From: Nitrospirota bacterium | Lineage (GTDB): Bacteria > Nitrospirota > UBA9217 | Direction: 5' to 3' | Assembly (NCBI GenBank): GCA_029858565.1 | Contig: JAOUEV010000002.1 | Span: forward strand, 102,428-166,427 | Length of the DNA stretch: 64,000 nt | In this document: positions 11,434 to 44,872 of the stretch, piece by piece | Layout: every line of letters starts with the position of its first letter | Numbering within the stretch: the first letter of the stretch is position 1 | Position numbers and translations under genes: made by a program | Notes under the pieces: generated by a model | Seen by the model: only the letters and a program-made list of their open reading frames with translations | What the model was told of the DNA's origin: nothing | The model's database searches: none

Positions 11434-12802
11434 AGCGCTGTTCATTGGAGCGAAAGAAGGCGTCAAGCTTTCTTTTTGCACTCTGCTGGTATTCTCGCTT
11501 CTGAGCGGTCGCGAGCGTCTTCCCCTGAAACGGTCCGTGATTGCCGGACTCCTTGTCGTGTTCCTTGCCTCTTTTCTCCTGCTTACCCTGCCGGTCACGT
11601 TCGAAATGCGCGAAATTATCGTTCGGATGATAGGGTATGTCTTTGGAATTTTCTTTTTTCTTTCCATTGGCGCGCTCTTTCACGAGTCAGGGACCGATAT
11701 CATCGGCCCTTTCCGCAGCGTTGGCGGGAAAAGGGTGCTCCAGATCCCTATCCTGCTGGTCTTAACCATTGGTTATTTTGCGCCTGACATGGCCGGCTCT
11801 GCGCTGTTCATTGCAGACCTTGCATCCATGGCACAGGCGCCTATGCCGGTCTTTCTTGCTTCCGGGCTCGGGTTTGTCCTGTTCATTGCCGGGACCGCTG
11901 CCCTTGGCAGGAAGGTACAGCCTGTGTTCCCGCGTCTTTTTGGTTTGCCCCAGGTGCTGCTGACCCTGGCACTCATCAAACTGCTTGCCGGCGGGATACG
12001 GGGATTTGCCGAACTTACTCTCATCCCGGCGGTGCAGGCTGGTCTCATGAAACTGGTCCACGATGTCATTCACCAGACCTTTGTCATGATCCTTGTGCCT
12101 GACCACCCCGTGCTTTCGACGACAACATGGAACTTTGTGGGTTTCTTGTTTCGGGAGACCGCGGGGCTTTGGTTGTCTCTGATCCTGCTGGTAACGCCGC
12201 TCGTCCTGTTCGTGATCAAACATTTCCGGGAGCCCCTTCGGTATCCCGGGAGCATTGATCGTCCGTCTCAAAGACGCATGTTCATCAGGTCTATTCGCGA
12301 TCAGCGGCTTCTCAAATCGCTTCCCGTGCTTTTCTTTTTAGCGGTAATCATCATGACCTGGTTCTCCCAGCAGGACGCGCCCGGTGTAAGCCTGTATCTA
12401 CCGGACCCTAAACCTGTCGCTGCGGACGGAGATGCATTGAATATTCCCATCCAATCGCCGACAGAAGACCTTCGCGACGGCGCTATTCATAAATTTTCGC
12501 TCCTGATTCGTGACGAACAGGTCAGGTTACTGATCATGAAAAAGCCTGACGGGACGCTCACGGCATGCCTCGATGCATGCGAAATATGCCCGCCCGATGG
12601 TTATGGCCAATCACGAGAACATGTTGTCTGCCTTTACTGTAAAACCCCCATCCCCTTTGATACGGTCGGGAAGCCCGGTGGATGCAATCCAATCCCCCTG
12701 CCAACTGTTGTGACGGACAAGGAAGTGCGGCTGACAATGAAGGATATCTCCGAAAAATGGGTCCTGGTGAAGTCCGGGGCATCCAAGACTACTGTAAAAT
12801 GA
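11414..12802 (+). CDS. polytopic membrane protein with FTR1-like N-terminal domain (degenerate RExxE motifs) and C-terminal Cys-rich COG4393/DUF2318-like domain
   Basis: TM1 LFIGAKEGVKLSF and a later TM FLFRETAGLWLSL resemble the two FTR1/EfeU REGLE helices, but with KEGVK and RETAG. C-terminal domain CLDACEICPPDGYG...CLYCKTPIP...GGC. Overlaps the ATPase gene by 20 nt. Confidence 0.55.
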   Translation: MSRFVLEALFIGAKEGVKLSFCTLLVFSLLSGRERLPLKRSVIAGLLVVFLASFLLLTLPVTFEMREIIVRMIGYVFGIFFFLSIGALFHESGTDIIGPFRSVGGKRVLQIPILLVLTIGYFAPDMAGSALFIADLASMAQAPMPVFLASGLGFVLFIAGTAALGRKVQPVFPRLFGLPQVLLTLALIKLLAGGIRGFAELTLIPAVQAGLMKLVHDVIHQTFVMILVPDHPVLSTTTWNFVGFLFRETAGLWLSLILLVTPLVLFVIKHFREPLRYPGSIDRPSQRRMFIRSIRDQRLLKSLPVLFFLAVIIMTWFSQQDAPGVSLYLPDPKPVAADGDALNIPIQSPTEDLRDGAIHKFSLLIRDEQVRLLIMKKPDGTLTACLDACEICPPDGYGQSREHVVCLYCKTPIPFDTVGKPGGCNPIPLPTVVTDKEVRLTMKDISEKWVLVKSGASKTTVK

Positions 12803-13797
12803 AATCGATTGCCGCCCGAATATATGCATTTCTGCGCTCTGCTGCTCTCACGGTCTGGCTTGTGGGATTGTTCCTGTTCTATTATCTCTCGATGGCCGTG
12901 TGGAGCAATGAAGCTTTTGGTATGTACATTGTCCATCTTTCTTCGAATAACCTGTTTCGTGGGTTTTATCTTTTATTCCTCTCCAATGTGGTTCTTCGTC
13001 TCATAGAGAGACTGCAACGCCTTTGGTCAACAAGGGCGCAATTCATTCTCCAATTGCCCTTGTTGGTGGGGCTTTTGCTGTTCCTGCCGGCCTTGTTCCT
13101 GAGCTTGAACATGAGAAAGACACTGCGAACTCCACCGGTTGGCATGGGAGACATCATCACTGTTCCCCACGGCACGGAGAAGTATCAGATCCAGTCTGTT
13201 GAGCCTGCGCTCAAGAAACGCTCTCTCAGGAATGAAGGGGCCGCGGTCTTTGATTACGAACCGGGGCTCATGCTCCTGGATCCTCAGGGAAGAACGTACC
13301 GGGTCGGCGCTTTTCCTCCCAGTCCTGTCGGCTCAACCTATATGCATGTGCTGACATTCGGGATCGGCCCTGGTGTGGAACTTAAAAAGGGGAGAGAAGT
13401 GGTATTTCGCGGATATATAGCGTTGCAGTTGACGCCATTTGGAAATGTCGACGTTTTTGACAATTCTGATTTGCCCTATAAGTTCTATTTGAGCATAATT
13501 CCCAATAGTACAATAAGAAAAGGAAAGGAATCCGCGAATACGTATGACCTTGAGAAACCGCGGTATAATGTCACTGTCGTAAAGGAAGAACAGACCATTT
13601 TAAACGGGGAAACAGATTCTTCGATCAGAATTGATGAAAACCTCACTCTTTCGTTCTTTACGCCATCGGACTGGGTCATAGTTGAAGTTGTTCAAGATAG
13701 GTTTTTGCCATGGTTTGTTCTTTCGATATGCTTAATCTGCGTGGGAATTGTGCCCTTCCTCTTCTCAATGGTGATGTCTAAACTAAGGGCGAAGTGA
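12799..13797 (+). CDS. membrane protein, possibly a short ResB/Ccs1-like paralogue
   Basis: Start ATG overlaps the upstream stop (ATGA), giving MKSIAARIYAFLRSAALTVWLV. Three N-terminal TM helices, a ~200-aa soluble domain, and a C-terminal TM helix (WFVLSICLICVGIVPFLF). Topology and C-terminal region (DWVIVEVVQDRF) loosely resemble ResB. No CcsA partner. Confidence 0.4.
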   Translation: MKSIAARIYAFLRSAALTVWLVGLFLFYYLSMAVWSNEAFGMYIVHLSSNNLFRGFYLLFLSNVVLRLIERLQRLWSTRAQFILQLPLLVGLLLFLPALFLSLNMRKTLRTPPVGMGDIITVPHGTEKYQIQSVEPALKKRSLRNEGAAVFDYEPGLMLLDPQGRTYRVGAFPPSPVGSTYMHVLTFGIGPGVELKKGREVVFRGYIALQLTPFGNVDVFDNSDLPYKFYLSIIPNSTIRKGKESANTYDLEKPRYNVTVVKEEQTILNGETDSSIRIDENLTLSFFTPSDWVIVEVVQDRFLPWFVLSICLICVGIVPFLFSMVMSKLRAK

Positions 13798-14964: not shown

Positions 14965-15045
14965 ATCCGGAACTGCAGCCATCTGTAGTCGGAAATATTT
15001 ATGAAGAATTATTTAAGAAGAGTGAACGCGGCCTCGGAGGTGGGT

Positions 15046-17787
15046 ATGAAAACGGTGAAGATTTCGATCATTCTGATGATTGCCATCGTGGCAGTGGCCA
15101 GTGCTGCCTTCGCGGCCCCGGTCCGGATCGGGACCCTGGAGCAGAATATCTCGGACCCTGTGCGGGTGGCTTTGGATGCTCAGGGGAATATATATGTGAC
15201 CGAGGCACAGCGCGACCTCGTCCTGGTTTATACCAGTAAAGGTCAGCATAAGACTGGCCTTTCGGTTCCTCGACCGCTCGGTGTTGCGGTTGACGGGAAC
15301 GGAACGATTTATGTAAGTTCTGGAAATCAGAGGACCAAAAACCCGGTGTATGTATTCACCCCGGACTTTGTGAAAGCCGGATGCCTGGGTGGGGCATCAT
15401 GCGCGGAATTTGTAAAGCCCATCGATGTGGCTGTTGATGGAAAAGGCAATGTGTATGTCGTAGACAATGACCCTGATTATAGTGTGGTCAAGGTGTATGA
15501 CGGTGCAGGCTCACTTATCCGTACGATTGCCGGCAGTGGCGCATCGCGGTTGAATAAACCCATGAGTGTTGCCATCGACGATACAGCCGGGGAAATCATA
15601 ATTTCCGATCAGCCGGATGTGATTGTTGCTGGTCAAAAGGCGATTGGCGCACGGATCCAGGCTTTTGATGGATCTGGAATTGCTGTGCGGACGATTGGTC
15701 AGTATGGGATCGAGGTCGGTCAGTTCAAAGAAGCTACAGATATTGCCATTGATGCCAAGGGGCAGCTGTATGTTACTGACGGCGCTTTGGGTGTCACTAA
15801 TATTATCAATGCCTCCGACGGGAACATCGTCGGTATTCTTTATGACGCCGGCAAGCCTGGTTATAACCCTAACGGTGTTGTGGTAAGCAAAAATGGACTT
15901 GCGTATGTGGTCATGCAAAAAGGCGAAGGCAGCAAGGGCAGGATTGACATTTACGCTCTTGAAGGATATGTGACGATGGCGGCTGCGCCTGCAGCGCTGA
16001 TGTTCGAGGCTCGGCAGTTCTCGGGCAATCCTTCCGCTCAGACGGTATCGGTAAGCAACAGCGGCAGCGGCACTCTCAACTGGACGGCATCGAAGAGCCA
16101 GTCGTGGATCGTGCTGGGGCAGGATGCAGGTACGGCGGGACCGAATGGATCTTCCGGTCTTCCCGTTGGTATAGACATCTCCGCGTTGAAGGCGGGAATT
16201 TATACAGGCACTGTTGCGGTCGTATCGGATTTCGGCCAGACGGAGTCAGTCGGTGTTTCTGTGAATGTGCTGAATCCGCTGATCCTGAATATCAGCAAGA
16301 GCACGATGACATTTACTGCTAAGAAGGGCAAAACAGCGGCTGCCCAGTCTCTTGCAACAGGGATCGACAACGTCACCACGGCAACGGCGTGGAGCGCGAA
16401 GTCCGATTCAACGTGGCTTTCTGTAACACCGGCATCGGGAACTGCGACTGCCGCGTCTGCGGTTGCTGGTGCAAACGTAACGATCAACACCGCTGGCATG
16501 GGTGTTGGAACCTATAAGGGTGCTATCACGGTATCTGCCCCCGGAGCTATCGGAGATGGCAGTGCTGTTATGGTTATGCTTACGATAACCCCGACCACGA
16601 AGATCACCGTAAATACGAACAATGAAAATGCCAAGTTCTCGGTAAGCGGCCCGTCGACATACAATGGTAGCGGCTCATCATGGAGTGTGGAAGATGTTCC
16701 TGCGGGCGATTATAAGGTCAACTTTGAGCCTGTTGCCGGCTATCGCAAACCGAAGGCAGCGATGGGGGCTGTCCCGGCGGATGGCGAGGTTTCCTTCTCG
16801 GGAAATTATACGTCCTTCGCTGATATTGCTGCGCGGCGGAATATCCTTGTGGCCGGTGCTCTTGGCGTAAAAGCGCGTGATTCTGAGGTCAGTGTGTATA
16901 GCAATACGGGTGCTCTTTCGCAGGCAATTGATCTGTCAGCGAATTACGGTGCCAGCGTGGCGGTCGCCGATGTTGACAATGACGGCGCAGAAGAGATTAT
17001 TGTTAGTGCCGCAGAAAAGGGGAGCAATCCCGCGACGGTTACGGTTATGAAAGCTGACAGGACCGTACTGAACAGCTTCGTTCCTTTTGCGAATGCCAAT
17101 GCTGTTCGGGTCGCGGCAGGAGACATGGATGGAAATGGGTCTGCGGAAATTGTCGTCATCCCAGCGCCTACCAGAAACGGCGCTGCCGGGACCGCAGCAG
17201 TGTATACCTACGACAGTGCGAGCGCGAAGATGATCGAAGTCGCGGCAGTGACCATGTATAAGAAGACGTCAATAGTTGACGTTGCTGTCGCGGATATTAA
17301 TGGTGATGGAAAAGCGGAACTTTTAACACTAGCCGCGTTTGAAGGAAAATCAGCAGGAATGGTAAAAGCCTGGAGCGTGAGCGCTGCAAAGGGTGGTTGG
17401 TCAGCAGCCTTGATCAACGATATCACCATGAACGGTGAAATGATGGGCGCTGCAGTGGCCGGTGGCGATGTCGATGGAGACGGTGTAAGTGAGATTATTG
17501 TCGGTTCCGCGGCAGATGCGGGTGGTATGCTGACCATCATTAAAGGCGACGGAACTCAGACGAAGGTGAAGGTCTTTGGCAGGAAGGATGTGGCTGGTAT
17601 GACGCTGGCCGTTGCTGACCTCGATGGCGACGGTAAGGCTGATCTCGTTGCGGCGCCTGTGCTTGAGAGTGGGAATGCGAAGAAGGATGGTGCGATCGAG
17701 GTCCTGAATTCGAATGGCACCTTGATGTTCTCGATCGATGTCAAGGCGGATGGTGCGAATGTTGCCATCGGTGAACTTGGTCTCTAA
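15046..17787 (+). CDS. secreted NHL-repeat beta-propeller / Ig-like x2 / PEGA-like / FG-GAP beta-propeller protein
   Basis: Start at Met16 of the listed ORF, with GGAGG 5 nt upstream and a signal peptide MKTVKISIILMIAIVAVASAAFA. NHL-like repeats: PRPLGVAVDGNGTIYVS and PIDVAVDGKGNVYVVD. Two Ig/BACON-like domains. FG-GAP repeats: VADVDNDGAEEIIVS, AGDMDGNGSAEIVV, VADINGDGKAELL, GGDVDGDGVSEIIVG and VADLDGDGKADLV. Confidence 0.8.
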   Translation: MKTVKISIILMIAIVAVASAAFAAPVRIGTLEQNISDPVRVALDAQGNIYVTEAQRDLVLVYTSKGQHKTGLSVPRPLGVAVDGNGTIYVSSGNQRTKNPVYVFTPDFVKAGCLGGASCAEFVKPIDVAVDGKGNVYVVDNDPDYSVVKVYDGAGSLIRTIAGSGASRLNKPMSVAIDDTAGEIIISDQPDVIVAGQKAIGARIQAFDGSGIAVRTIGQYGIEVGQFKEATDIAIDAKGQLYVTDGALGVTNIINASDGNIVGILYDAGKPGYNPNGVVVSKNGLAYVVMQKGEGSKGRIDIYALEGYVTMAAAPAALMFEARQFSGNPSAQTVSVSNSGSGTLNWTASKSQSWIVLGQDAGTAGPNGSSGLPVGIDISALKAGIYTGTVAVVSDFGQTESVGVSVNVLNPLILNISKSTMTFTAKKGKTAAAQSLATGIDNVTTATAWSAKSDSTWLSVTPASGTATAASAVAGANVTINTAGMGVGTYKGAITVSAPGAIGDGSAVMVMLTITPTTKITVNTNNENAKFSVSGPSTYNGSGSSWSVEDVPAGDYKVNFEPVAGYRKPKAAMGAVPADGEVSFSGNYTSFADIAARRNILVAGALGVKARDSEVSVYSNTGALSQAIDLSANYGASVAVADVDNDGAEEIIVSAAEKGSNPATVTVMKADRTVLNSFVPFANANAVRVAAGDMDGNGSAEIVVIPAPTRNGAAGTAAVYTYDSASAKMIEVAAVTMYKKTSIVDVAVADINGDGKAELLTLAAFEGKSAGMVKAWSVSAAKGGWSAALINDITMNGEMMGAAVAGGDVDGDGVSEIIVGSAADAGGMLTIIKGDGTQTKVKVFGRKDVAGMTLAVADLDGDGKADLVAAPVLESGNAKKDGAIEVLNSNGTLMFSIDVKADGANVAIGELGL

Positions 17788-17865
17788 TTCATGATCGTGA
17801 CCAGCATGAACATGAATGGAATTAAAAGATTGATACGGCGTACTCTGCAAGAAGGAGCGGTGACT

Positions 17866-20800
17866 ATGAAGAAATCTACTCTACTTACGATTTCAATTCT
17901 GATTATGCTGTTCGGCATGCTGATTGCCGTGCGGGACGTCGCGGCACTCGATGCCCCGCATAACGCGAACGACGTATCTCGGTCGATCACCTGCTCCACG
18001 TGCCACGTTTCTCCATTGGGACCGACCCCGACGTGGAAAACAATCCCGACGACCACGGACAATACCTATACAAACAATCTTTGTACAAGCTGTCACGCGA
18101 GCGGCAAGCTCACGACCAGCAAGTATGAGGATATTAAGACCCACTCTGCGGCGAACACGGGAAGCACCCGGTGGGGCGGTGGCTGGACGGTTGAGTGTCG
18201 TGTCTGCCATCATGCCCATAACCAGGCGCAGCAGACCACGTTCTATTCAGATGCTAATAATAATGTGCTGACCGGTACGGTGGCGGCGCTGACGTCGTCG
18301 GTATCTGCGACCATGTCCACGCTTACTGCGTCCGCGGGGTCGATGGGAACCGATGGTTACGTTGGTTACCTTCTTATCCCGAATACCGCATATCCTACGA
18401 TCATGTATCGTGTTATAGCCAATGACGCGACGAAGTTTACCGTGAAAGGTGCTATTAACCTGGCTCGTACGGCAGTGGGAAAGACCTGGGCACTGCGCTA
18501 CGGCAAAATGGTGAAAACGCAAATTGCCTATACGAACCCGACTTCGGTGAATGCCTCGGTCAAGTTCTACAATAATGCAGGCAACAATTCCTTTGCAGAA
18601 ACCGCGAGCCCATCAACATCCCTTTGCATGGTCTGTCATACCCAGACCAAGCATTTCAAGAATGACGGAACATTTGAGACTGCAGGTCATCCGGCAGCTG
18701 TCGGAACGGCCTGCACTTCCTGCCATAAACATAATACGGGCTTCAAGGCAAGCGGATGTAATGGCTGTCACGGCCAGAGCGGATCGACCGGCGCGCCTCT
18801 TGTTGCCGGTGATCTTGTCTCGCCAGCAACCGGCCACGCCGAAGGCGCACATCTGCGGCATGCGGTGACCCTGTCTCTGAGTTGTGCTGTCTGTCACGCT
18901 GGAAATACCATGCCTGCGCTCGACAGCGAGATAACCATGTCGTTCAGCGACGCGGCAGCAGGTGGAGCATATCAGGGCACTGCTCTCAACGCTCCTTACA
19001 CCTATAGCGCCAATGTCACCCTGGGCGGCACGCAAACCTGTTCCTCTTTATATTGCCATAGCTCGGGTCAGAGTGCCACGGGTGGTTCGCTTGCCGGCGG
19101 AGACTACAAGTCAGTGAACTGGACAGGAGCCGGCCTGAACTGCGGCAGCTGCCACGTTGATATGGATGCAAGCGCATCGGCAACTGGCAGCCATATTAAG
19201 CACGCACAGGATAAGGCCATTGCTTGTGCGACCTGCCATGATGGATACACAGAAACGTCAACGGCCGCGGCAACGCACGCAAATGCCTCGATCAATCTGA
19301 GCTTCAGCGGTAGGGCTGCTGGCTCGACATACTCCCAGGGAAACTCCCATGCTGTGCAGAACGGATACGGCCAGTGTTCAACGAACGATTGCCATAGCAC
19401 CGGCCAGGGTTCCGATGGCAGTTCGTCCGGCATTACCTATGCGTCTCCGACGTGGGGCGGAACGGTGAATTGCAGCTCCTGCCACAAGAACATGGATGCT
19501 GATGCGACCGCACCGGGCAGCCATGTGAAGCACGCGCAGAGCGCGGCGATTGCCTGCGCCACCTGTCACAACGGATACACCGAGACCACCGCAGCCGTGG
19601 CAACCCATGACGACGGCACGGTGGACATGAGCTTCAGCGGTCCGGGAGACGGCACGTTCTACACCGGCGGTACGACGAGCGGCAACTACGCGCTCGGCGG
19701 CGGTTACGGTTCTTGCTACACCAGCTCCTGCCACAGCTCGGGCCAGTCCGCCACGGGTACGGCCTCGCCGCTGACCTATGGTTCACCGGTATGGGGCGGT
19801 ACCTTGGACTGCGGTTCCTGCCACACGAACATGGATACTGATGCGACCGCACCGGGCAGCCACGTGAAGCATGCCCAGAGCGCGGCCATCGCTTGCGCCT
19901 CCTGTCACAGCGGTTACACTGAGACCACGGTTGCGGTTGCAACGCATAATAACTCGACAGTCAACGTGACGATGGCGACCGGCTTCTACACCGGCGGCAC
20001 AACGAGCGGCAACAACGCGCTCGGCGGCGGCTATGGTTCCTGCTACACCAGCTCCTGCCACAGCTCGGGCCAGTCAGCCACGGGTACGGCCTCGCCGCTG
20101 ACCTATGGTTCTCCGGCATGGGGAGGTACACTGGACTGCGGCTCCTGCCATAAGAACATGGATACTGATGCGACCGCACCGGGCAGCCACGTGAAGCATA
20201 CCCAGAGCGCGGCCATCGCTTGCGCAACCTGTCACAACGGTTACACCGAGACCTCGGTTGCCGCGGCATCGCATAACAACGGCACGGTGGATATGAGCTT
20301 CAGCGGGACGGGTGCCGGGACGTTCTACAGCGGCGGCACAGTGAGCGGCGACAACGCGCTCGGCGGCGGCTACGGTTCCTGCTACACCAGCTCCTGCCAC
20401 AGCTCAGGCCAGTCAGCGACGGGTACGGCATCACCGTTGACCTACGGCTCTCCTGCGTGGGGCGGAGCGCTGGATTGCGGCTCCTGCCACAAGAACATGG
20501 ATACGGATGGAACTGCGCCGGGAAGCCACGTTGGCCATGCACAGACAGCGGCGATTGCGTGCGCAACCTGCCACAGCGGGTACACCGAGACGACGGTTGC
20601 GGCTGCAACGCATAATAACTCGACAGTCAACGTGACGATGTCGACCGGCTTCTACAGCGGCGGCACGGTTTCGGGTGACAATGCGCTGGGCGGCGGTTAT
20701 GGAACCTGTTTCACAACGAACTGCCATGGCTCATCCTCACCCGTCTGGGGCACGAACACCACGAATGCTTCCTGTACGAAGTGCCATGGTGTTTCCGGCG

Positions 20801-21747
20801 CAACCCCTGCGCAGTATACCGCGGATAACAATATAGCGGCGCCTGGATATGTTTCTGTCGCTCCGGTCGGTACCGGTCGCGCAACATCTGGTGCGACAGC
20901 TGCGACAGATCCGAAGGTCGGAGCTCATAACGCACACCTTAAGGGCGTGAGCAACTATTCGGATCCCATTGCCTGCAGCGCCTGCCACAATACGTCATCA
21001 GGGCACATGGATGGTTCCGGCACACTGACATTCAGCGGTTTGTCTACATCGAACGGCGCCGCTGCAAATTATAGCGCGCCGAATTGTTCAACAACCTACT
21101 GTCATTTCGGTAAATCGATCAATTTGTACTCGCCGGCAGTTTCGAGCGCTACAGTGACCTGGAATGATACGGCTTACCTGAGCGGCACACCGAGCATCGG
21201 CGGAGACTGCGCGAAGTGCCATCTCTCACCGCCTTCGGCAACAGGGACCCATGCAGGCTACAGCACCTTCACAGACTGCAACACCTGTCATCCTCATGTG
21301 AGCACAGACGGTACGTTCAACAACAAATCGCTGCATATCAACGGCGTAGTCGAAGCCGCAAGCGGTTGCGACGGCTGCCACGCATATCCGCCTGCAATAG
21401 GCGACGGCAAGGCGTATAAGGGTTCCGCGCTGCTCGGTAAAGGAGCGCATACATCCCATGTCAACTATCTCCTCCTGAGGACCGGATTGACCCTTAGCGC
21501 TAAGGGTGATACTTATACCGGTGCAACGGTTGCGGCGATCTGCGGCGTTTGTCACAACACGTCAGCCGATGCCTTCCATAAGAATGGCAATGATGTCCGT
21601 GACCTCCTGATCCCATCGTCTTACCTCTTTGGTACGGGGACGCCGACATATAACGGGAATCCCGCGACTACGACCAATAAGAACTGCTCGAATGTCAGCT
21701 GCCATTTCAATGTAACTCCGCTGTGGCAGCAGACCGCGGGTCAGTAA
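17866..21747 (+). CDS. giant multiheme c-type cytochrome (~31 heme-binding motifs: 23 CXXCH + 8 CX4CH; Geobacter-type CX4CH...CXXCH repeat domain)
   Basis: Start at Met26 of the listed ORF, with AAGGAG 8 nt upstream and signal peptide MKKSTLLTISILIMLFGMLIAV. Motifs counted by eye include CSTCH, CTSCH, CRVCH, CMVCH, CSSLYCH, CGSCH, CATCH, CYTSSCH x3, CFTTNCH, CSTTYCH and CSNVSCH. Triheme module CX4CH-CXXCH-CXXCH repeated about six times. Confidence 0.9.
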   Translation: MKKSTLLTISILIMLFGMLIAVRDVAALDAPHNANDVSRSITCSTCHVSPLGPTPTWKTIPTTTDNTYTNNLCTSCHASGKLTTSKYEDIKTHSAANTGSTRWGGGWTVECRVCHHAHNQAQQTTFYSDANNNVLTGTVAALTSSVSATMSTLTASAGSMGTDGYVGYLLIPNTAYPTIMYRVIANDATKFTVKGAINLARTAVGKTWALRYGKMVKTQIAYTNPTSVNASVKFYNNAGNNSFAETASPSTSLCMVCHTQTKHFKNDGTFETAGHPAAVGTACTSCHKHNTGFKASGCNGCHGQSGSTGAPLVAGDLVSPATGHAEGAHLRHAVTLSLSCAVCHAGNTMPALDSEITMSFSDAAAGGAYQGTALNAPYTYSANVTLGGTQTCSSLYCHSSGQSATGGSLAGGDYKSVNWTGAGLNCGSCHVDMDASASATGSHIKHAQDKAIACATCHDGYTETSTAAATHANASINLSFSGRAAGSTYSQGNSHAVQNGYGQCSTNDCHSTGQGSDGSSSGITYASPTWGGTVNCSSCHKNMDADATAPGSHVKHAQSAAIACATCHNGYTETTAAVATHDDGTVDMSFSGPGDGTFYTGGTTSGNYALGGGYGSCYTSSCHSSGQSATGTASPLTYGSPVWGGTLDCGSCHTNMDTDATAPGSHVKHAQSAAIACASCHSGYTETTVAVATHNNSTVNVTMATGFYTGGTTSGNNALGGGYGSCYTSSCHSSGQSATGTASPLTYGSPAWGGTLDCGSCHKNMDTDATAPGSHVKHTQSAAIACATCHNGYTETSVAAASHNNGTVDMSFSGTGAGTFYSGGTVSGDNALGGGYGSCYTSSCHSSGQSATGTASPLTYGSPAWGGALDCGSCHKNMDTDGTAPGSHVGHAQTAAIACATCHSGYTETTVAAATHNNSTVNVTMSTGFYSGGTVSGDNALGGGYGTCFTTNCHGSSSPVWGTNTTNASCTKCHGVSGATPAQYTADNNIAAPGYVSVAPVGTGRATSGATAATDPKVGAHNAHLKGVSNYSDPIACSACHNTSSGHMDGSGTLTFSGLSTSNGAAANYSAPNCSTTYCHFGKSINLYSPAVSSATVTWNDTAYLSGTPSIGGDCAKCHLSPPSATGTHAGYSTFTDCNTCHPHVSTDGTFNNKSLHINGVVEAASGCDGCHAYPPAIGDGKAYKGSALLGKGAHTSHVNYLLLRTGLTLSAKGDTYTGATVAAICGVCHNTSADAFHKNGNDVRDLLIPSSYLFGTGTPTYNGNPATTTNKNCSNVSCHFNVTPLWQQTAGQ
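19040..21030 (+). repeat. tandem ~327-339-bp DNA repeats (about six units; four near-identical between ~19376 and 20706) encoding triheme cytochrome modules
   Basis: tgctacaccagctcctgccacagctc recurs at ~19714, 20041 and 20380. cataataactcgacagtcaacgtgacgatg recurs exactly ~660 bp apart. Long and short unit variants alternate, suggesting a ~660-bp higher-order repeat. Confidence 0.8.
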
Positions 21748-33555: not shown

Positions 33556-34589
33556 ACTTCGGCACATACCGACGGCCCTCACGCGTGTTTGTGCTCATCA
33601 CGACGGTATCCTACCTCGCGGGTTATGTCCTGCTGCGGTACTCAGGGCTCTTTTCGCTCCCTCCGGAAAATATCTTCCGGGCGCTCCATGCCTGGCCCGC
33701 GCTGCTCGGCGCCGGGATGCTCGTCCTGGTCGGGGCTGCGGGGTTGGCGGCGCTGCGGTCGAGAGCCGGGGAGGACCCTATCCGGCTCTCCGGCAATCTC
33801 GCGGCAGGGGCAGGCTGGCTGGGACTCCTGTTGATCGGTGCCGGCATCGTGACCAGCAGCTTTACGAGGTTCGAGGGCAGCGTCACGCTTCACGAGTCTC
33901 AGGAAGCGGCGCTCGCGGCCACGGTCTATGATGCGGGAACGCTCTACCGGCGCAGGTTCTCGCGGGAGCCGAACGGCGGCATCCTGATGGAAGCTGTTGC
34001 ACCCTTCCCGCAGGCAGGCGGACCGGTAGTACGGGGATTTTCAGCGGAAGCCCGCCTTCGGAAAGACCCGGCCTCTCCGCCACGTGCTCTCAAGATCGGC
34101 TCCCTGTTCCCGGCCATGGCGGACGGCTTCCTGTTCCGGATTGCGGAGGCGGGGTATTCCCCCCACCTGTTCCTTTTCGATCTGAGCGGGAACAGCCTCC
34201 TGGATATCTACGCCATCATGCGGCTGTACCCGCCGGGAGCGGAAGACTCGTTTCGCTTCGACAAGATCATTCCGCATACGTTCTACCTGAGGTACTATCC
34301 TGATGTGTCGCTCCTGTCCTCCGCAACGGGGACCGTCGGGATCAGGTCCGGGCCTGCCTACGAGGTGCGGATCGTGCGCAATCTCGACCTGCTCGCTGAC
34401 CGGTACGCAGCACCGGACGAGCTCATCCGTTTCGATTCCCTGTTCCTGTCCGTGGGTGACAGCAGGCGATGGGTGAGGATTACGATCGTCAGGGATCCCG
34501 GGATGGTCCTGCTGCTCGCAGGTCTTGTCCTGACCATCCTCCGGGCGATCAGTCTTGGGATCAGGAGGACGGAAACCATCCGCTATTGA
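33546..34589 (+). CDS. membrane protein, possibly a short ResB/Ccs1-like paralogue
   Basis: Topology: three N-terminal TM helices, a soluble domain, and a C-terminal TM helix. C-terminus RWVRITIVRDPGMVLLLAGLVLTIL resembles the conserved ResB terminal segment (..vkdPG..lvylGfvll.lG). Confidence 0.4.
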   Translation: MGIDFGTYRRPSRVFVLITTVSYLAGYVLLRYSGLFSLPPENIFRALHAWPALLGAGMLVLVGAAGLAALRSRAGEDPIRLSGNLAAGAGWLGLLLIGAGIVTSSFTRFEGSVTLHESQEAALAATVYDAGTLYRRRFSREPNGGILMEAVAPFPQAGGPVVRGFSAEARLRKDPASPPRALKIGSLFPAMADGFLFRIAEAGYSPHLFLFDLSGNSLLDIYAIMRLYPPGAEDSFRFDKIIPHTFYLRYYPDVSLLSSATGTVGIRSGPAYEVRIVRNLDLLADRYAAPDELIRFDSLFLSVGDSRRWVRITIVRDPGMVLLLAGLVLTILRAISLGIRRTETIRY

Positions 34590-34687: not shown

Positions 34688-35113
34688 TCAGGGCTTGACG
34701 AGGAACCACAGGCCATCCATCCCATGGCCCTTTCTGTCTCCCGGCTTCTTGTCCCCGGCGAAATTATAGAGCGGCATGCCCTTATAGGCCAGATGATCCT
34801 GGTCGTTGTCGGTGCGGTGGAAGGATACGAAATCCGACTGCTTGAGCCCCCTGGACAGGGATATCTCCTCGGCCGTATAGCAGTAGACCGGCCAGGTTTG
34901 CGTGCAGGAACCCGTGCATTCGCTTTTTCCGGGTCCGTCCTTCTTGTAATAATACAGCGCCCGGCCGTTGGAGTTCGTCAGGTACTTCCCCAGCTTCTTG
35001 TCGACCGCGATCTTGACCAGTTCCTTTTGCTCCTGCGCGGCAGCGATGCCTGCCATTGGCCCTGCAAGAAACAGAACTGCCACGATCGCCCCCACCACAG
35101 CTTGTTTGCTCAT
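34688..35113 (-). CDS. secreted lipoprotein_15/COG4315-family repeat protein
   Basis: Signal peptide, and two copies of the family motif G.xLYx(F/Y)xxD: GRALYYYKKDGPG and GMPLYNFAGDKKPGD. Confidence 0.7.
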   Translation of the reverse strand: MSKQAVVGAIVAVLFLAGPMAGIAAAQEQKELVKIAVDKKLGKYLTNSNGRALYYYKKDGPGKSECTGSCTQTWPVYCYTAEEISLSRGLKQSDFVSFHRTDNDQDHLAYKGMPLYNFAGDKKPGDRKGHGMDGLWFLVKP

Positions 35114-35231
35114 ACGTGCCCCCTCATGTGCTCTCTGAAAGATCGTCCATCGTACGGAATAAGCATATCATACTGTTTCTAAACTGTCAAAACCACGGTC
35201 CTGACGCGGTCCTGAACGGGCATGGCGGTTT

Positions 35232-37505: not shown

Positions 37506-37550
37506 GGGGTACCGTCCTTTGTGCGCCCGAGAGCGGCAGGGCCGCCCGCG

Positions 37551-39508: not shown

Positions 39509-39537
39509 GCCTGTCCGACGGCCCTGTCCGTTCCGAC

Positions 39538-41119: not shown

Positions 41120-42562
41120 ATGATGCATTCAACAGTACAATCGAAACAGCAGGCCATCCTGCCGGTGGTTCTGCTGGTCATGTTCCTCTCCGGCGCCTGT
41201 ACGCAGCGACCTGCAGGGACAGAACCCCTGCGCCTGCTCGGGACCGATCCCCTCACCGCAGTGTCCGTGACCGGGTACCACGAGGTCCTTGTAACCTGGA
41301 TGCAAAGGGGCCTTCGGAACATGACGGCGGTCCATGCGGGGCCGAAGGACGGACTTGCATTCGTCCCGCCTGCCCGGGTGAAGACGATCAAGGATCTCCT
41401 GCAGAACGGGGGCTCCGGCACGGATGTCGGGGACCTGGTCACTGCCGACAACTATCTGTTCCTGGCCCAGCGCCTCGGTCTGATACGCCGCGTCTTCTGG
41501 GTCATTCCCTACCACCATGTCGACTATATCAATGCAGAACTGCGCGTCCAGGCCTTTCTCCGCAACGAGACATCCCATTTCAGTCCGCAGGATGTGGGCT
41601 CCATGCGGTTCCGGAACGGTTGCGTCTCCGGGACCCTTGCCGGCATCGAGGTGCATGTCTGCAGTCCGACGACTCTGCCGCGCCTCGCAGAACCGGCCGT
41701 TGTCACGATCGATCCCGGGTTCTTTCCGCTCTATGCGGCGAACCGGGGCCCGAGCGGTCTCGGCGCGACGAAGGAGTTCTTCGACCTCATGGCAATTAAG
41801 CGGATCGGCACCCGGGCAGTGTCGGTCGCCGCTTCCCCGGAGTTCCAGGGGATGCGGGGGTATCTGTCAGAAGAGATCGTCAGCATCCTGAAGGACCCGG
41901 AAATCCTCCAGAGCACGCAGCCGCCTGACCTCTGGGCCCTCCGTGAGCAGGCTGACGGGATGCTGACGCGCGGGGACGTGAAGGAGGCGGCCGGGCATCT
42001 GGAAAAGCATGGTGCTGCGTTTCCCGCCGATCCCTATTTGCATCTGATGCGGTGGACGGCCCAGGCCCTTCTGTCGAAGAGGGCGTCGGCGCTCAATGCG
42101 CTGACGGCTCTCTGCGTGAAGGATCCCGTGCTGTGCAGCGGCATCGTCGATGCCGGCGTCCTGCTCCGGGAACAGGGCGACCTGGCCGGAGCGGAGGAAT
42201 TCCTGAGGAAAGCGGTCTCCCTGCAGCAGCTGCGTCCCGGCCGCGCGCGACGGGAGTACGCGGTCACCCTCTACCAGGCAGGAAAGTATGCCGATGCGCA
42301 GCGGGAGGCGTCACCCCTGGTTGCCGATCCGGCATACACCGTCGCGGGCGGTCTGCTGCTGGGAGATTGCGCGTACGCATTGCAGCAGAACGACGAGGCC
42401 GTGCGCCGGTACGAAGGAGCGCTCAGTTCCTACCGGGAGGCCGGAGGATACCGACTGAGCAAACGGGAGCAGGAAAGCATCAGCAGGCTGAAGTCGCTCT
42501 ATCAGCGGAGGAACGACAAGCGCGGCCTGCGGACCCTGGAGGGAACACCTGCCTTTGAATAG
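41120..42562 (+). CDS. putative lipoprotein: GT39-associated-family domain fused to C-terminal TPR repeats (member 3)
   Basis: Lipobox-like FLSGAC. N-terminal domain shares RRV...VDY, EPAVVTIDPGFF and VSVAAS blocks with members 1 and 2. C-terminal TPR-like repeats (AEEFLRKAVSLQQ..., YEGALSSYREAG). Confidence 0.6.
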   Translation: MMHSTVQSKQQAILPVVLLVMFLSGACTQRPAGTEPLRLLGTDPLTAVSVTGYHEVLVTWMQRGLRNMTAVHAGPKDGLAFVPPARVKTIKDLLQNGGSGTDVGDLVTADNYLFLAQRLGLIRRVFWVIPYHHVDYINAELRVQAFLRNETSHFSPQDVGSMRFRNGCVSGTLAGIEVHVCSPTTLPRLAEPAVVTIDPGFFPLYAANRGPSGLGATKEFFDLMAIKRIGTRAVSVAASPEFQGMRGYLSEEIVSILKDPEILQSTQPPDLWALREQADGMLTRGDVKEAAGHLEKHGAAFPADPYLHLMRWTAQALLSKRASALNALTALCVKDPVLCSGIVDAGVLLREQGDLAGAEEFLRKAVSLQQLRPGRARREYAVTLYQAGKYADAQREASPLVADPAYTVAGGLLLGDCAYALQQNDEAVRRYEGALSSYREAGGYRLSKREQESISRLKSLYQRRNDKRGLRTLEGTPAFE

Positions 42563-44036
42563 CGAACTCGAAAAGGGGACGCCCGCCGCGCCCCGCTCTT
42601 TCCGGGAGGTTGCCGAAGGGATCTATCGTTCCTTCCGGCGGCCGCGGGTAACGGTCATCATCATTTCGGCGCTGCTTGCGCTGTTCCTCTCCGGGCTGCT
42701 CATTCCCCAGAAAACGCTCTTCACATCACGGGAACAGTTCGAGCAGTGGAACGCGGACCATCCGCTCCTGTCGCTGGTGATCACTGGCCTCAAGCTCAAT
42801 GAGATCTATGTTGCGCCGGTCACCGTGGTCTTCCTGGCGCTCTTTTTCCTGAACCTCCTGGCGGTCCTTGCGCACCGGGTCCCCCATGTGCTCAGGCGGG
42901 CATATGTCATCGACCGGCGCAGCGCCGTCGAAGGCCTTGAGAAGGTGAAGAACGACCCACAGGCGCACACCATCGTCCTGCGCGGGACAACGCAGGGTGC
43001 GGCGGGGGTGGCCGCAGGACAGGCTGCTTCGTTCTTCCGGAAGCGGTTCTGGTCCGTGATGACCGCTGATGACGGCCGTTCGTTCATCGCCGTCCGGAAC
43101 CGTCTGTCCCCGTTGGGATTCCTGCTGTTCCATGTCAGTTTTTTTCTGTGTCTTGCCGGCGGGCTTCTCGTGATGTACACGCGGTTTTCCGGCAACCTGC
43201 TGCTGACCGAGGGGGAGGAATTCCAGTCGAACATCGCGCAGTTCCGGAAGATCAGCCGGGAGCCGAAGATATTCCATGCGCTTCCGGAGCTCAGGATCGC
43301 CTTGCGCAAGGTGTTCCCCACGTATGAAGGCAGCACCGGAACGGACCTGAAGGTCTCGATGCAGATACAGTATTTCAAGGAAGCCTTCGAAGCGGTCAGC
43401 AGGATCAATGAGCCGATCAGAAAAGGGGCGATCTCGATCCTGCCGGAGAACATCGGGATCTCGCCCCTCTTTGTCCTGCACGGGCCGGGCGGGGCCGAGG
43501 CGTCGGGGGGCTATTTCATCCTGAACGTGTTGAAGGGCGAGGAGGACTCGTTCCAGTTTCCCGACCTTCCCTATACCGTCTTTGTGCGGTTCTACCCGGA
43601 TTTTACCGAAGAGGCAGGCAAGCCGGTCAGCAGGTCACTGGACATAAGAAATCCGGTCTTCCATATCCGGGTGCAGGAGGGGGAGCGGACGCTTGCCGAG
43701 GGCTATCGGAGGCCCGGAGAGGGGATCCGGTTCGGAGCGCATGAGCTCTCCTGCAGCGAGATCCGGTACTGGGTCGACCTGCTCGTGGTGCGCGAGTACG
43801 GGGACACGCCGATCGCGGTGGGATTCATCCTCGGGGCCGTGGGCCTGATCATGCGGCTCATCTTTTACCAGAAGACCGTTCGCGTGCACATCGAGGAACT
43901 CGATGATGCGACCGTCCTGTACGTCGGCGGAAACGGTGAATACTATCAGCATACGTTCCGGGAGGAACTGGAGCGATTGGCCGCAGCCTTGACCAATGCT
44001 CTCCAGCAGACCCGGGAGGGGGGGACGGCACTATGA
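42555..44036 (+). CDS. resB: cytochrome c biogenesis protein ResB/Ccs1 (system II)
   Basis: TTG start per the ORF track. N-terminal TM then a large periplasmic domain. C-terminus YWVDLLVVREYGDTPIAVGFILGAVGLIMRLIFY. Directly followed, with a 4-nt overlap, by CcsA. Confidence 0.75.
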   Translation: MNSELEKGTPAAPRSFREVAEGIYRSFRRPRVTVIIISALLALFLSGLLIPQKTLFTSREQFEQWNADHPLLSLVITGLKLNEIYVAPVTVVFLALFFLNLLAVLAHRVPHVLRRAYVIDRRSAVEGLEKVKNDPQAHTIVLRGTTQGAAGVAAGQAASFFRKRFWSVMTADDGRSFIAVRNRLSPLGFLLFHVSFFLCLAGGLLVMYTRFSGNLLLTEGEEFQSNIAQFRKISREPKIFHALPELRIALRKVFPTYEGSTGTDLKVSMQIQYFKEAFEAVSRINEPIRKGAISILPENIGISPLFVLHGPGGAEASGGYFILNVLKGEEDSFQFPDLPYTVFVRFYPDFTEEAGKPVSRSLDIRNPVFHIRVQEGERTLAEGYRRPGEGIRFGAHELSCSEIRYWVDLLVVREYGDTPIAVGFILGAVGLIMRLIFYQKTVRVHIEELDDATVLYVGGNGEYYQHTFREELERLAAALTNALQQTREGGTAL

Positions 44037-44872
44037 GCTGGATCGAACCGATTCTTGCGTGGGGGATCATCTATCTGTATGCCATATGTTCGATCCTGCT
44101 GCTGACGGCGTTCGTCTTTGAGAAGGACCGCCTCCTCAGGCTGGTCCCCTACATCCTGGTCCCCGCGTTCGTTGCCCATACCGCGGTCTTCGTCGCGCGC
44201 TGGGTGCGGACCGGCTACTTCCCGGCGAACGGGGAGTTCGAGAACGCGATCAGCGGCGGCTGGTTCACCATCCTGTTGACCCTCGGCCTCTTCTTCCGGA
44301 AGAAGGAGCTCTCGGGCGTATCCCTCATCACGGTCCCGGTGACCCTGCTGTTTCTCGGCTACGGGATCATGAAGAATCCCGCGGCCCTTCCCCATGCTGC
44401 CACGCTGAAAAGCTCCTGGCTCGTCATTCACGTGCTCTTTGCGCAGCTTGCATTCGGGGCGTACCTGATCGCATCCGGCTTCGGCGTGGTGTACCTCCTC
44501 AAGGAGAGCAAGACGCGAACGGGAGGGACCTCGCCGATCTATGACAAGCTGCCACAGCTTACGGTCATCGAGGAGCTCATGTTCAAGTTCGTGATCTACG
44601 GATTCATCGCTGACGCGATCATGATCGCCGCGGGAACGATCTGGGCAAAGGACCTCTGGGGCAGCTACTGGAGCTGGGACCCCGTCGAGGTCTGGTCACT
44701 GGCCTCGTGGCTCATCTACGGGCTCTCGATCCACCTGAAGGTGCAGATGGGCTGGCGGGGCCGCCGGCTGGCTTGGGTCTACGTGTTCGCGGTCCTCGGT
44801 ATCATCATTACCTACTGGGGCGTGGACCTGTTCGTGAAGAACACCCAGCATGTCTTCGGTGTTCAGTCGTGA
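44033..44872 (+). CDS. ccsA: cytochrome c assembly protein CcsA/ResC (system II heme lyase subunit)
   Basis: Tryptophan-rich WWD motif WAKDLWGSYWSWDPVEVWSL. Multiple TM helices, conserved His residues. 279 aa. Confidence 0.85.
   Translation: MSWIEPILAWGIIYLYAICSILLLTAFVFEKDRLLRLVPYILVPAFVAHTAVFVARWVRTGYFPANGEFENAISGGWFTILLTLGLFFRKKELSGVSLITVPVTLLFLGYGIMKNPAALPHAATLKSSWLVIHVLFAQLAFGAYLIASGFGVVYLLKESKTRTGGTSPIYDKLPQLTVIEELMFKFVIYGFIADAIMIAAGTIWAKDLWGSYWSWDPVEVWSLASWLIYGLSIHLKVQMGWRGRRLAWVYVFAVLGIIITYWGVDLFVKNTQHVFGVQS

What the first reader, a model, noticed from the sequence alone, without database searches (positions are those of the whole stretch)
12799..44872. Eleven non-canonical CX4CH heme motifs plus three ResB-like genes: possible dedicated maturation of unusual heme sites
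The two large cytochromes carry 8 + 3 CX4CH motifs (CSSLYCH, CSTNDCH, CYTSSCH x3, CFTTNCH, CSTTYCH, CSNVSCH; CTNVSCH, CTNLYCH, CNTNQCH). Non-standard heme-binding spacings in other organisms require specialised system-II heme lyases. The window holds one canonical ResB-CcsA pair (42555-44872). It also holds two shorter ResB-like membrane proteins without CcsA partners, at 12799 immediately upstream of the cytochrome operon and at 33546. These could be specificity paralogues.
Basis: inference. Interest (0 to 1): 0.55.

Follow-up and report, generated by a model that had tools for sequence, protein, structure and literature searches.

The report
His-less ResB-like proteins beside giant cytochromes
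The eleven CX4CH motifs belong to an already catalogued heme-binding repeat, and the two short "ResB-like" genes are real but remote ResB relatives that lack the heme-ligating histidine, so they look like accessory membrane proteins (one always paired with an iron-permease-like protein), not dedicated CX4CH heme lyases.

Summary
The two cytochromes carry 23+8 and 12+3 CXXCH/CX4CH motifs. In the larger one, every one of its 62 cysteines lies in a motif. A complete ResB-CcsA pair sits at 42555-44872.

The CX4CH motifs are the known Geobacter-type CxxxxCH/CxxCH domain (PF09698, TIGR01904), arranged partly as a 339-nt tandem repeat.

Both short proteins fail Pfam's ResB threshold. Family profiles, pairwise BLAST and, for A, a confident AlphaFold model (best PDB match CcsBA) still place them in the ResB superfamily. 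I call them A (12799-13797) and B (33546-34589).

Both lack three canonical features:
- the TM3 histidine that ligates heme in canonical CcsB;
- the cytoplasmic loop;
- the C-terminal extension.

A is translationally coupled to a DUF2318/EfeU-like membrane protein in 17 of 17 loci, usually with a MacB-type ABC transporter. This resembles Campylobacter FetABCD. B follows a 183-aa anchored protein and, in relatives, sits directly after ResB-CcsA.

CX4CH cytochromes flank A in only 4-6 of about 13 informative loci. System II genes flank it in about 6.

Verdict: these are uncharacterised accessory modules genomically tied to cytochrome c production. CX4CH-specific lyase activity is not supported.

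The parts
8284..9510 (+). MacB-type ABC permease (FtsX + MacB_PCD), FetB-like
   Evidence: Precomputed Pfam PF12704 and PF02687 on the identical public gene. Conserved upstream of the FetA-like/A pair in 10 or more loci.
9548..10627 (+). Second MacB-type permease, FetC-like
   Evidence: PF12704 and PF02687. Synteny.
10765..11433 (+). ABC ATPase, FetD-like; overlaps the next gene by 20 nt
   Evidence: PF00005. Synteny.
11414..12802 (+). FetA-like membrane protein: EfeU/FTR1-like polytopic N-domain with a degenerate REXXE (KEGVK), plus a C-terminal DUF2318 Cys-rich domain (CxxC...CxxC...C)
   Evidence: PF10080 at E 9e-24. 7 of 14 family members hit NCBIfam EfeU NF041756, best E 5.6e-6. Alignment A4.
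12799..13797 (+). Short ResB-like protein A (332 aa): 4 TM helices plus a periplasmic beta domain, no TM3 His; ATGA overlap with the FetA-like stop codon
14164..14964 (+). Secreted tetraheme cytochrome c (4 CXXCH)
   Evidence: Conserved after A in L001, L015, L017 and L022.
15001..17787 (+). Secreted NHL / BACON / FG-GAP repeat protein (928 aa)
   Evidence: Syntenic in L001, L015 and L017.
17791..21747 (+). 31-heme cytochrome (23 CXXCH + 8 CX4CH); likely start at 17866 (MKKSTLL); contains a 339-nt tandem repeat at 19435-20619
   Evidence: TIGR01904 at E 2.8e-46 with 8 stretches, and PF09698.
21882..24425 (+). 15-heme cytochrome (12 CXXCH + 3 CX4CH); the ORF is open from 21723 and the likely start is MMKK at 21882
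   Evidence: TIGR01904 at E 1.1e-16 and PF09698 at E 1e-11.
32956..33555 (+). 199-aa membrane-anchored protein of unknown function; conserved upstream partner of B, overlapping it by 10 nt
   Evidence: Homologues directly precede B in L002, L007 and L008.
33546..34589 (+). Short ResB-like protein B (347 aa), no TM3 His (Trp in its place)
41120..42562 (+). 480-aa protein preceding ResB (faint TPR_12); proteins of similar size (386-396 aa) precede ResB or the 183-aa/B pair in L002, L007 and L008, but their homology to this one was not tested
42555..44036 (+). Canonical ResB/CcsB with TM3 His193, a cytoplasmic loop and a C-terminal extension
   Evidence: PF05140 at E 5.8e-29. Alignment A5.
44033..44872 (+). 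CcsA/ResC with the WWD motif (WGSYWSWDPVEVW) and His133, His233 and His273
   Evidence: PF01578 at E 3.6e-32. TIGR03144 scores 160.6 bits, below its 187.6 cutoff. Alignment A6.

Best explanation
The window encodes an extracellular-type electron-transfer operon: a tetraheme cytochrome, an NHL/FG-GAP protein, a 31-heme cytochrome and a 15-heme cytochrome. Its CX4CH sites are the catalogued CxxxxCH/CxxCH heme-binding repeat.

The only complete heme-attachment machine in the window is ResB-CcsA at 42555-44872. By default it matures all 50 sites; this step is inferred.

The two short proteins are divergent ResB-superfamily members. They keep the TM1-3 helices, the periplasmic beta ('beta-cap') domain and TM4. 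They have lost everything linked to heme entry and transmembrane heme ligation: the TM3 His, the cytoplasmic loop and the C-terminal extension. They therefore cannot form a CcsB-type heme channel (shown from sequence; the functional consequence is inferred).

Protein A is an obligate, translationally coupled partner of a FetA-like protein (EfeU/FTR1-like permease domain plus periplasmic DUF2318 Cys-rich domain), and usually of a MacB-type ABC transporter. The most likely role is a membrane-anchored periplasmic cap or binding subunit of this iron/redox-handling module, comparable to P19 with FTR1 and to the CcsB beta-cap over CcsA. The module would supply or manage iron, or reducing power, for mass production of c-type cytochromes (inferred).

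Protein B, with its 183-199-aa anchored partner, is an accessory of the ResB-CcsA operon (shown by synteny; role inferred).
For: Motifs and domain.

ResB-superfamily membership:
- BLASTP against the window's ResB.
- HMMs of A and B hit canonical ResBs at 1e-12 to 1e-24.
- AF2 model of A has pLDDT 88.5, with 4 TM helices plus a beta domain.
- Foldseek's top PDB hit is CcsBA 7S9Y at E 8.5e-5, followed by CcmF.
- 18 of 38 A members give weak PF05140 hits.

Loss of heme-channel features:
- Alignment A5 shows His in 5 of 5 canonical ResBs and none in A, B or the 406-414-aa forms.
- His is present in 50 of 54 long relatives against 16 of 78 short relatives.
- PMC10663686 states that all CcsB carry this TM His.

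Partner of A:
- A FetA-like gene lies immediately upstream in every locus with upstream sequence, mostly with a 4-nt overlap.
- FtsX-FtsX-ABC is adjacent in 12 loci.
- PF10080 at E 9e-24; EfeU hits in 7 of 14 members.
- C. jejuni FetA (DUF2318) with FetBCD is needed for growth under iron limitation (PMC10783030).

Link to cytochrome production:
- System II genes are adjacent in L002, L006, L011, L012 and L025.
- Cytochrome operons are adjacent in the window, L001, L015, L017, L022 and L025.

Context of B. B is a real family: 41 representatives at E<=1e-30, all 300-360 aa.
Against: No experiment exists on any member. The iron/redox role rests on analogy with C. jejuni FetABCD, whose own biochemistry is unknown.

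The window lacks FetM/P19 and thioredoxins. The REXXE motif of the FetA-like protein is degenerate, so iron transport is uncertain.

The repeated adjacency to ResB/CcsA and to CX4CH cytochromes also fits a more direct role in cytochrome maturation.

The B model was unusable (pLDDT 41). No complex prediction could be run. A few short B-like relatives do retain the TM3 His (16 of 78).
Confidence: 0.6

Rival explanations
1. A and/or B are alternative beta-cap subunits that dock onto CcsA, or onto the ResB-CcsA complex, and reshape the substrate pocket so that the wider CX4CH loop can be ligated. They would be specificity factors for CX4CH.
For: - In CcsBA the beta-cap sits directly over the active site where CXXCH binds (PMC10663686).
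- B lies directly after ResB-CcsA in L002 and L007.
- A lies next to CX4CH-rich giant cytochromes in the window, L001, L017 and L025.
- Dedicated System II enzymes exist for CXXCK and CX15CH.
Against: - The known dedicated lyases are complete CcsBA proteins with all four His and a WWD domain. A and B have neither a WWD partner of their own nor the TM His.
- A's invariant partner is FetA-like, not CcsA (17 of 17 loci).
- In L002, L005, L006, L012, L013, L019, L021 and L026, A has no cytochrome within the available flank.
- B's neighbourhoods (L007, L008) contain no cytochromes.
- PF09698 was defined on Geobacter, whereas the A family was found only in Nitrospirota.
- CX4CH hemes occur in other lineages without such genes, for example heme 3 of hydrazine dehydrogenase (PMC6469936).
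Confidence: 0.1
2. The FetA-like/A/MacB-ABC module is a non-motif-specific accessory of System II. The DUF2318 CXXC domain, powered by the ABC transporter, would keep apocytochrome cysteines reduced, taking a CcdA/ResA-like role. A's beta domain would hold the unfolded apocytochrome, a help needed for 15-31-heme substrates.
For: - No CcdA/DsbD or thioredoxin gene is seen in the annotated neighbourhoods of any ResB-CcsA here.
- DUF2318 has two conserved CXXC motifs.
- The C. jejuni authors propose that FetA and FetBCD relay reducing power to periplasmic thioredoxins (PMC10783030).
- The module is adjacent to System II genes in about 6 loci.
Against: - CcdA/ResA may simply be encoded elsewhere in the genome.
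- The four Cys could equally be a structural Zn or Fe site.
- The EfeU-like domain points to metal transport.
- There is no direct evidence that any ResB-like beta domain binds apocytochrome.
Confidence: 0.2
3. A and B are decaying remnants of duplicated resB genes with no function.
For: They lost the catalytic His and about 150 residues relative to canonical ResB.
Against: - 76 A homologues at 41-58% identity share 26 invariant positions, including His183.
- The B family has 41 representatives at E<=1e-30, all full length.
- Gene order and translational coupling with partners are conserved.
Confidence: 0.03

Closest known systems
CcsB/ResB of System II cytochrome c synthase (PF05140; H. hepaticus CcsBA, PDB 7S9Y)
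   Same: Same overall topology: TM1-TM2-TM3, periplasmic beta-rich domain, TM4. There is detectable profile and structural similarity. B sits in a ResB-CcsA operon in relatives.
   Different: No TM3 heme-ligating His, no cytoplasmic TM2-TM3 loop, no C-terminal cytoplasmic extension, and the [VI]NxP motif is replaced. Both fall below Pfam's threshold. A pairs with a DUF2318/EfeU-like protein instead of CcsA.
Second, short CcsB of anammox bacteria (e.g. kuste3101, 322 aa, no PF05140 hit, truncated motif; PMC4222556)
   Same: A ResB-like protein of about 320 aa with 4 TM helices that escapes Pfam, present in addition to a canonical CcsB in a cytochrome-rich organism.
   Different: The anammox protein is adjacent to a modified 257-aa CcsA. 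A is adjacent to a FetA-like protein and B to a 183-aa anchored protein. A closer analogue of the anammox pair is the 254-aa CcsA plus 239-aa ResB-like pair seen in L002, L006 and L026, which the window lacks.
Campylobacter jejuni FetABCD (DUF2318 membrane protein FetA plus FetBCD ABC transporter; PMC10783030, PMC6083913)
   Same: A DUF2318 polytopic membrane protein encoded with two permeases and an ABC ATPase. In L025 the order is even FetA-(A)-FetB-FetC-FetD.
   Different: No FetM (FTR1), FetP (P19) or thioredoxins FetE/F nearby, and no YHS domain detected. There is an extra ResB-like gene fused into the operon. The context is cytochrome operons and System II genes, not a Fur-regulated iron-uptake locus.
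Dedicated System II lyases NrfI (CXXCK) and CcsA1 (CX15CH) of Wolinella succinogenes
   Same: They are additional System II-related genes in an organism with non-standard heme motifs.
   Different: Those are complete fused CcsBA enzymes with WWD and all four His (PMC10663686). A and B are His-less CcsB-like halves. No dedicated lyase for CX4CH turned up in the literature searches.
Geobacter CxxxxCH...CXXCH domain cytochromes (PF09698 / TIGR01904)
   Same: Both large cytochromes match above the curated cutoffs. The repeat unit is CX4CH-~34-CXXCH-~28-CXXCH.
   Different: The host is a Nitrospirota (Thermodesulfovibrionales-like) organism, and the operon includes an NHL/BACON/FG-GAP protein.

Membership tests
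CcsB/ResB (PF05140) | Score above Pfam's gathering threshold (24.6 bits) | tested here: not met
   A has no hit at E<=0.1. B scores 15.0 bits, E 0.011. The canonical ResB at 42555 scores 101.7 bits. 18 of 38 A-family members give only sub-threshold hits.
CcsB/ResB (PF05140) | Conserved TM histidine that ligates the transmembrane heme (TM3 of CcsB) | tested here: not met
   His is present in 5 of 5 canonical ResBs of the window and related loci. It is replaced by L/Y/M in A, by W/F/Y/V in B and by R in the 412-aa forms. Among relatives, 50 of 54 long ones keep His against 16 of 78 short ones. The feature is taken from PMC10663686.
CcsB/ResB (PF05140) | Periplasmic beta-rich ('beta-cap') domain between TM3 and the last TM | tested here: met
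   The AF2 model of A has beta strands at residues 107-299 flanked by helices, and its top Foldseek hit is CcsBA 7S9Y. B aligns to ResB residues 194-443 and to positions 150-400 of canonical relatives.
CcsB/ResB (PF05140) | Adjacent WWD-domain partner CcsA | tested here: not met
   The window has a single PF01578 gene, at 44033. A is always preceded by a FetA-like gene. In L002 and L007, B lies two genes after CcsA but behind a canonical ResB.
CcsB/ResB (PF05140) | Cytoplasmic domain (TM2-TM3 loop plus C-terminal extension) next to the heme entry site in unfused CcsB | tested here: not met
   Both segments are absent from A and B in alignment A5. The feature is described in PMC10663686.
CcsB/ResB (PF05140) | VNx(1-4)P motif used as a CcsB signature (PMC4222556) | tested here: not met
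   Canonical sequences have INEP, VNKP, VNEP or INRP. At the aligned position A has AFPP and B has LFP.
CxxxxCH/CxxCH domain cytochrome (PF09698 / TIGR01904) | HMM match above the curated cutoff | tested here: met
   TIGR01904 scores 155.2 and 60.4 bits (cutoff 27). PF09698 scores 34.8 and 45.8 bits (cutoff 21.7).
CxxxxCH/CxxCH domain cytochrome (PF09698 / TIGR01904) | Covalent heme at the CX4CH site | not testable with these tools
   The evidence is indirect. All 62 Cys of the 31-motif protein are in motifs. CX4CH binds heme in hydrazine dehydrogenase (PMC6469936).
Dedicated System II heme lyase for a non-canonical motif (NrfI / CcsA1 type) | Complete CcsBA with WWD domain, two P-His and two TM-His | tested here: not met
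   A and B have no WWD domain and no TM His.
Dedicated System II heme lyase for a non-canonical motif (NrfI / CcsA1 type) | Co-occurrence with the special substrate | tested here: inconclusive
   CX4CH cytochromes lie within 10 kb of A in the window, L001, L017 and L025, and probably in L015 and L022. They are absent from the available flank in 8 other loci. Whole genomes could not be examined.
FetABCD-type module (C. jejuni) | DUF2318 polytopic membrane protein plus two permeases plus an ABC ATPase in one operon | tested here: met
   PF10080 at E 9e-24. PF12704/PF02687 twice and PF00005.
FetABCD-type module (C. jejuni) | Linked FTR1 permease FetM, P19 (FetP) and thioredoxins FetE/F | tested here: not met
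   None appear among the called genes of window 1414-64000.

The most novel reading that the evidence does not exclude
The FetA-like (EfeU-like + DUF2318) / His-less ResB-like pair, with its MacB-type ABC transporter, may be a previously unrecognised accessory machine of cytochrome c biogenesis in Thermodesulfovibrionia. It would be a fourth functional partner type for the ResB fold, handling iron, heme or apocytochrome thiols for giant multiheme cytochromes. It would also give a first functional handle on the enigmatic FetABCD proteins of Campylobacter and other pathogens.
Probability: 0.3. Interest if true: 0.65.

Novelty: new variant of a known kind. Interest (0 to 1): 0.4.

Why it matters
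The CX4CH motifs themselves are ordinary: a catalogued domain.

What is not in the literature I could search is the following. The ResB fold occurs in His-less short forms. One subfamily of these is strictly coupled to a DUF2318/EfeU-like membrane protein and a MacB-type ABC transporter, next to System II genes and 30-to-50-heme cytochrome operons.

If that coupling reflects function, it would extend the parts list of System II-type cytochrome biogenesis for giant extracellular cytochromes. It would also suggest what the uncharacterised FetABCD proteins of Campylobacter do.

For annotation, it warns against calling such genes 'ResB' or 'heme lyase'.

Tried and rejected
- Sequence search of PDB with the canonical ResB and with the A profile found no CcsBA. 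Only the fold comparison worked.
- The AF2 model of B from 5 sequences was unusable (pLDDT 41), so no fold search was run on it.
- The search for related loci with the 38-sequence alignment failed for lack of a conserved stretch. With a 12-sequence alignment, the scans returned only 5 loci from genome contigs and 10 from metagenome contigs. Absence of the A family outside Nitrospirota is therefore limited by the search patterns.
- Look-up of the public 228-aa call of A found nothing.
- Literature searches for a CX4CH-specific lyase found none. I could not retrieve a citable source for my recollection that Desulfovibrio cytochrome c3 CX4CH sites are matured by the general E. coli Ccm system, so that point is own knowledge only.
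- Pfam did not recognise the N-terminal domain of the FetA-like protein. NCBIfam EfeU models did, weakly.
- Pseudogene or remnant status was rejected on conservation.
- The CKKQNCH motif in ORF 34676-35182 was rejected as chance. That ORF lies opposite a called Lipoprotein_15 gene.


Full report
**1. Observation**

- ORF 17791-21747 (1318 aa; likely start at 17866, MKKSTLL) has 23 CXXCH and 8 CX4CH.
- ORF 21723-24425 (likely start at 21882, MMKK) has 12 CXXCH and 3 CX4CH.

In the first protein all 62 cysteines are consumed by these 31 motifs. Upstream Cys occur only at spacings 2 and 4 from a CH. Residue shuffles give on average 0.15 CX4CH, with a maximum of 3. The motifs are therefore not chance.

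They recur in a regular unit, CX4CH-~34-CXXCH-~28-CXXCH. Part of it is a 339-nt tandem repeat of 3.5 copies at 82% identity, at 19435-20619.

Both proteins match the curated 'CxxxxCH/CxxCH domain c-type cytochrome' model TIGR01904 (155 and 60 bits; cutoff 27) and Pfam PF09698 'Geobacter CxxxxCH...CXXCH motif'. The non-canonical spacing is thus a catalogued domain. CX4CH is an accepted heme-binding motif, structurally seen at heme 3 of hydrazine dehydrogenase (PMC6469936; listed among known motifs in PMC11492766).

**2. The canonical pair**

ORF 42555-44036 is a full ResB (PF05140, E 5.8e-29). ORF 44033-44872 is CcsA (PF01578, E 3.6e-32). CcsA carries the WWD motif WGSYWSWDPVEVW and His133, His233 and His273. 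No other PF01578 gene is among the public gene calls that cover window 1414-64000.

**3. Are the short proteins ResB-like?**

Protein B (33546-34589, 347 aa) scores 15 bits against a threshold of 24.6.

Deeper tests show real but remote homology:
- BLASTP against the window's ResB gives 9e-8 for A and 6e-14 for B. The B alignment covers residues 92-346 against ResB residues 194-443.
- HMMs built from 38 A homologues and 5 B homologues hit the canonical ResBs of the window and of loci L002 and L007 at 1e-12 to 1e-24.
- 18 of 38 A members give sub-threshold PF05140 hits.
- An AlphaFold model of A (pLDDT 88.5) shows four long helices flanking an all-beta domain at 107-299. Its best PDB match is H. 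hepaticus CcsBA (7S9Y, E 8.5e-5, probability 1.00), followed by CcmF.
- An exhaustive HMMER search with the B profile finds 41 representatives at E<=1e-30, all 300-360 aa and matched end to end. After these come canonical 420-490-aa ResBs, matched only over TM3, the beta domain and TM4.

Both are conserved gene families. A has 76 homologues at 41-58% identity and 26 invariant positions.

**4. What they lack**

In alignment A5 the five canonical ResBs carry His at the start of TM3 (FLLFHVSFF in the window, His193).
- A members have L, Y or M there.
- B members have W, F, Y or V.
- Related 412-aa forms have R.

In the wider set, 50 of 54 relatives of 400 aa or more keep this His, against 16 of 78 short ones. 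The Kranz-laboratory review states that all CcsB/A proteins possess the two TM histidines, one of them in CcsB TM3. It also states that unfused CcsBs have a cytoplasmic domain next to the heme entry site, built largely from a C-terminal extension (PMC10663686).

A and B lack the His, the ~80-residue TM2-TM3 loop and the C-terminal extension. They keep the beta-cap. The [VI]NxP signature used for anammox CcsB (PMC4222556) is also replaced. They therefore cannot build a CcsB-type transmembrane heme site. This is an inference from sequence.

**5. Real partners**

*Protein A.* In every locus with upstream sequence, A is immediately preceded by a ~460-aa PF10080 (DUF2318, 'FtrD-like') membrane protein, usually with a 4-nt overlap. 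These loci are the window, L001, L002, L005, L006, L010-L013, L015-L019, L021, L025 and L026. In 12 of them there are also two MacB-type FtsX permeases and an ABC ATPase.

The N-terminal polytopic domain of this partner is weakly EfeU/FTR1-like. Seven of 14 members hit NCBIfam NF041756, best E 5.6e-6. Its TM1 motif is a degenerate REXXE, (K/R)EG(V/L)K. The C-terminal domain has invariant CxxC...CxxC...C.

This gene set corresponds to fetA (DUF2318) and fetBCD of Campylobacter jejuni. Those genes are required for growth under iron limitation, but their biochemistry is unknown (PMC10783030). Here FetM, P19 and the thioredoxins are absent, and a ResB-like gene is added.

Further FetA-like + ResB-like pairs occur in L002, L005, L006 and L026, with ResB-like partners of 320 aa or 406-414 aa. 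The pairing is therefore recurrent.

*Protein B.* B is always preceded by a ~183-199-aa membrane-anchored protein. In L002 and L007 it follows ResB-CcsA directly. In L002 everything is contiguous: ResB-CcsA-182aa-B-FtsX-FtsX-ABC-FetA-A.

**6. Test of the CX4CH link**

- The tetraheme/NHL/giant-cytochrome operon follows A in the window, L001 (35 CXXCH + 14 CX4CH in the part held) and L017.
- It probably also follows A in L015 and L022, where the contigs end.
- In the distant L025 a 2290-aa cytochrome with PF09698 lies just upstream of ResB-CcsA-FetA-A.
- In L002, L005, L006, L012, L013, L019, L021 and L026 no cytochrome lies in the available flank.
- System II genes flank the module in L002, L006, L011, L012 and L025.

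The module is thus clearly tied to c-type cytochrome production in general. A CX4CH-specific tie is not demonstrated. B's neighbourhoods hold TPR proteins, PMT-type glycosyltransferases and GDSL/ALGX genes, not cytochromes.

Dedicated System II lyases are documented only for CXXCK and CX15CH, and they are complete CcsBA enzymes (PMC10663686; PMC3601427).

**7. Interpretation**

Most likely, the window's ResB-CcsA matures all sites. A is a periplasmic cap or binding subunit of an EfeU-like/DUF2318 + MacB-ABC module that handles iron or reducing power in support of heavy cytochrome synthesis. B is an accessory of the ResB-CcsA operon.

Two weaker alternatives remain:
- a motif-independent apocytochrome thiol or chaperone role for the FetA-like/A module;

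None can be settled without complex prediction, genome-wide co-occurrence or heterologous maturation assays.

**8. Novelty**

The CX4CH domain is known. Short Pfam-negative CcsB paralogues have been noted in anammox bacteria, there paired with a modified CcsA (PMC4222556). The strict coupling of a His-less ResB-like family to a FetA-like protein and MacB-type transporter, next to System II genes and giant cytochromes, was not found in the literature searched. It is best described as a new variant of a known kind.

Noticed in passing
window 19435-20619 (and L004): The public contig k141_362376 lacks one 339-nt repeat unit (one CX4CH plus two CXXCH) of the 31-heme cytochrome: its gene call is 1184 aa, against 1293-1318 aa here. 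This indicates copy-number variation, or assembly collapse, of heme repeats between strains.
   Followed up: partly
window 1-23129 versus 23546-64000: The window is 100% identical to ENA contig k141_362376 from 23546 onward but only 98.2-99.3% identical before that. The switch lies inside the second cytochrome gene. This suggests strain mixing or a chimeric assembly at the cytochrome locus.
   Followed up: partly
L002:13570-15198, L006:14459-16136, L026:14732-16237: A short CcsA (254-255 aa) has an altered WWD motif (YWLWT[SP]KELW) and no C-terminal P-His2. It is followed by a 239-aa ResB-like protein and preceded by an SRPBCC protein and a B12-radical-SAM enzyme. It resembles the second, modified CcsA-CcsB pair of anammox bacteria. 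The window has no such pair.
   Followed up: partly
L002:16252-18866(-), L006:16152-18778(-), L026:17384-20022(-), L005:3146-5397: A second (and in L005 a third) FetA-like + His-less ResB-like pair occurs, with ResB-like partners of 406-414 aa or 320 aa. In L002, L006 and L026 it is followed by four small ORFs of 60-130 aa.
   Followed up: partly
window 25110-32745(-), 35232-40710(-), 44850-64000(+): ResB-CcsA and B are embedded in a large block of B12-binding radical-SAM enzymes, amine-oxidase-like, GDSL/ALGX, PMT-type (GT-C) glycosyltransferases and many long TPR proteins, one with a weak TPR_CcmH_CycH hit. The TPR/PMT part is syntenic with B in L007 and L008. It may be a glycosylation or lipid-modification system, perhaps for surface proteins.
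   Followed up: no
window 15001-17787: A 928-aa secreted protein with NHL repeats, two BACON-like domains and FG-GAP repeats sits between the tetraheme and the 31-heme cytochrome. It is syntenic in L001, L015 and L017. NHL proteins also accompany multiheme cytochromes in the Uet cluster described in PMC10734462.
   Followed up: no
window 34676-35182 (+): This ORF contains a CX4CH string (CKKQNCH). It lies antisense to a called Lipoprotein_15 gene and has no other heme motif, so it is a chance match and not a cytochrome.
   Followed up: yes
window 11414-12802: The FetA-like family keeps only half of the FTR1/EfeU REXXE iron motif in TM1 ((K/R)EG(V/L)K, Glu15 nearly invariant). It has a nearly invariant PDHP His231. 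Whether it still conducts iron is open.
   Followed up: partly
window 4465-8141 and L001:1425-5042: An NtrY-like PAS/HAMP histidine kinase, a rhodanese, an Ogg-HhH protein and a 98-aa ORF precede the FtsX genes in conserved order in the window and in L001. The kinase is a candidate regulator of the operon.
   Followed up: no
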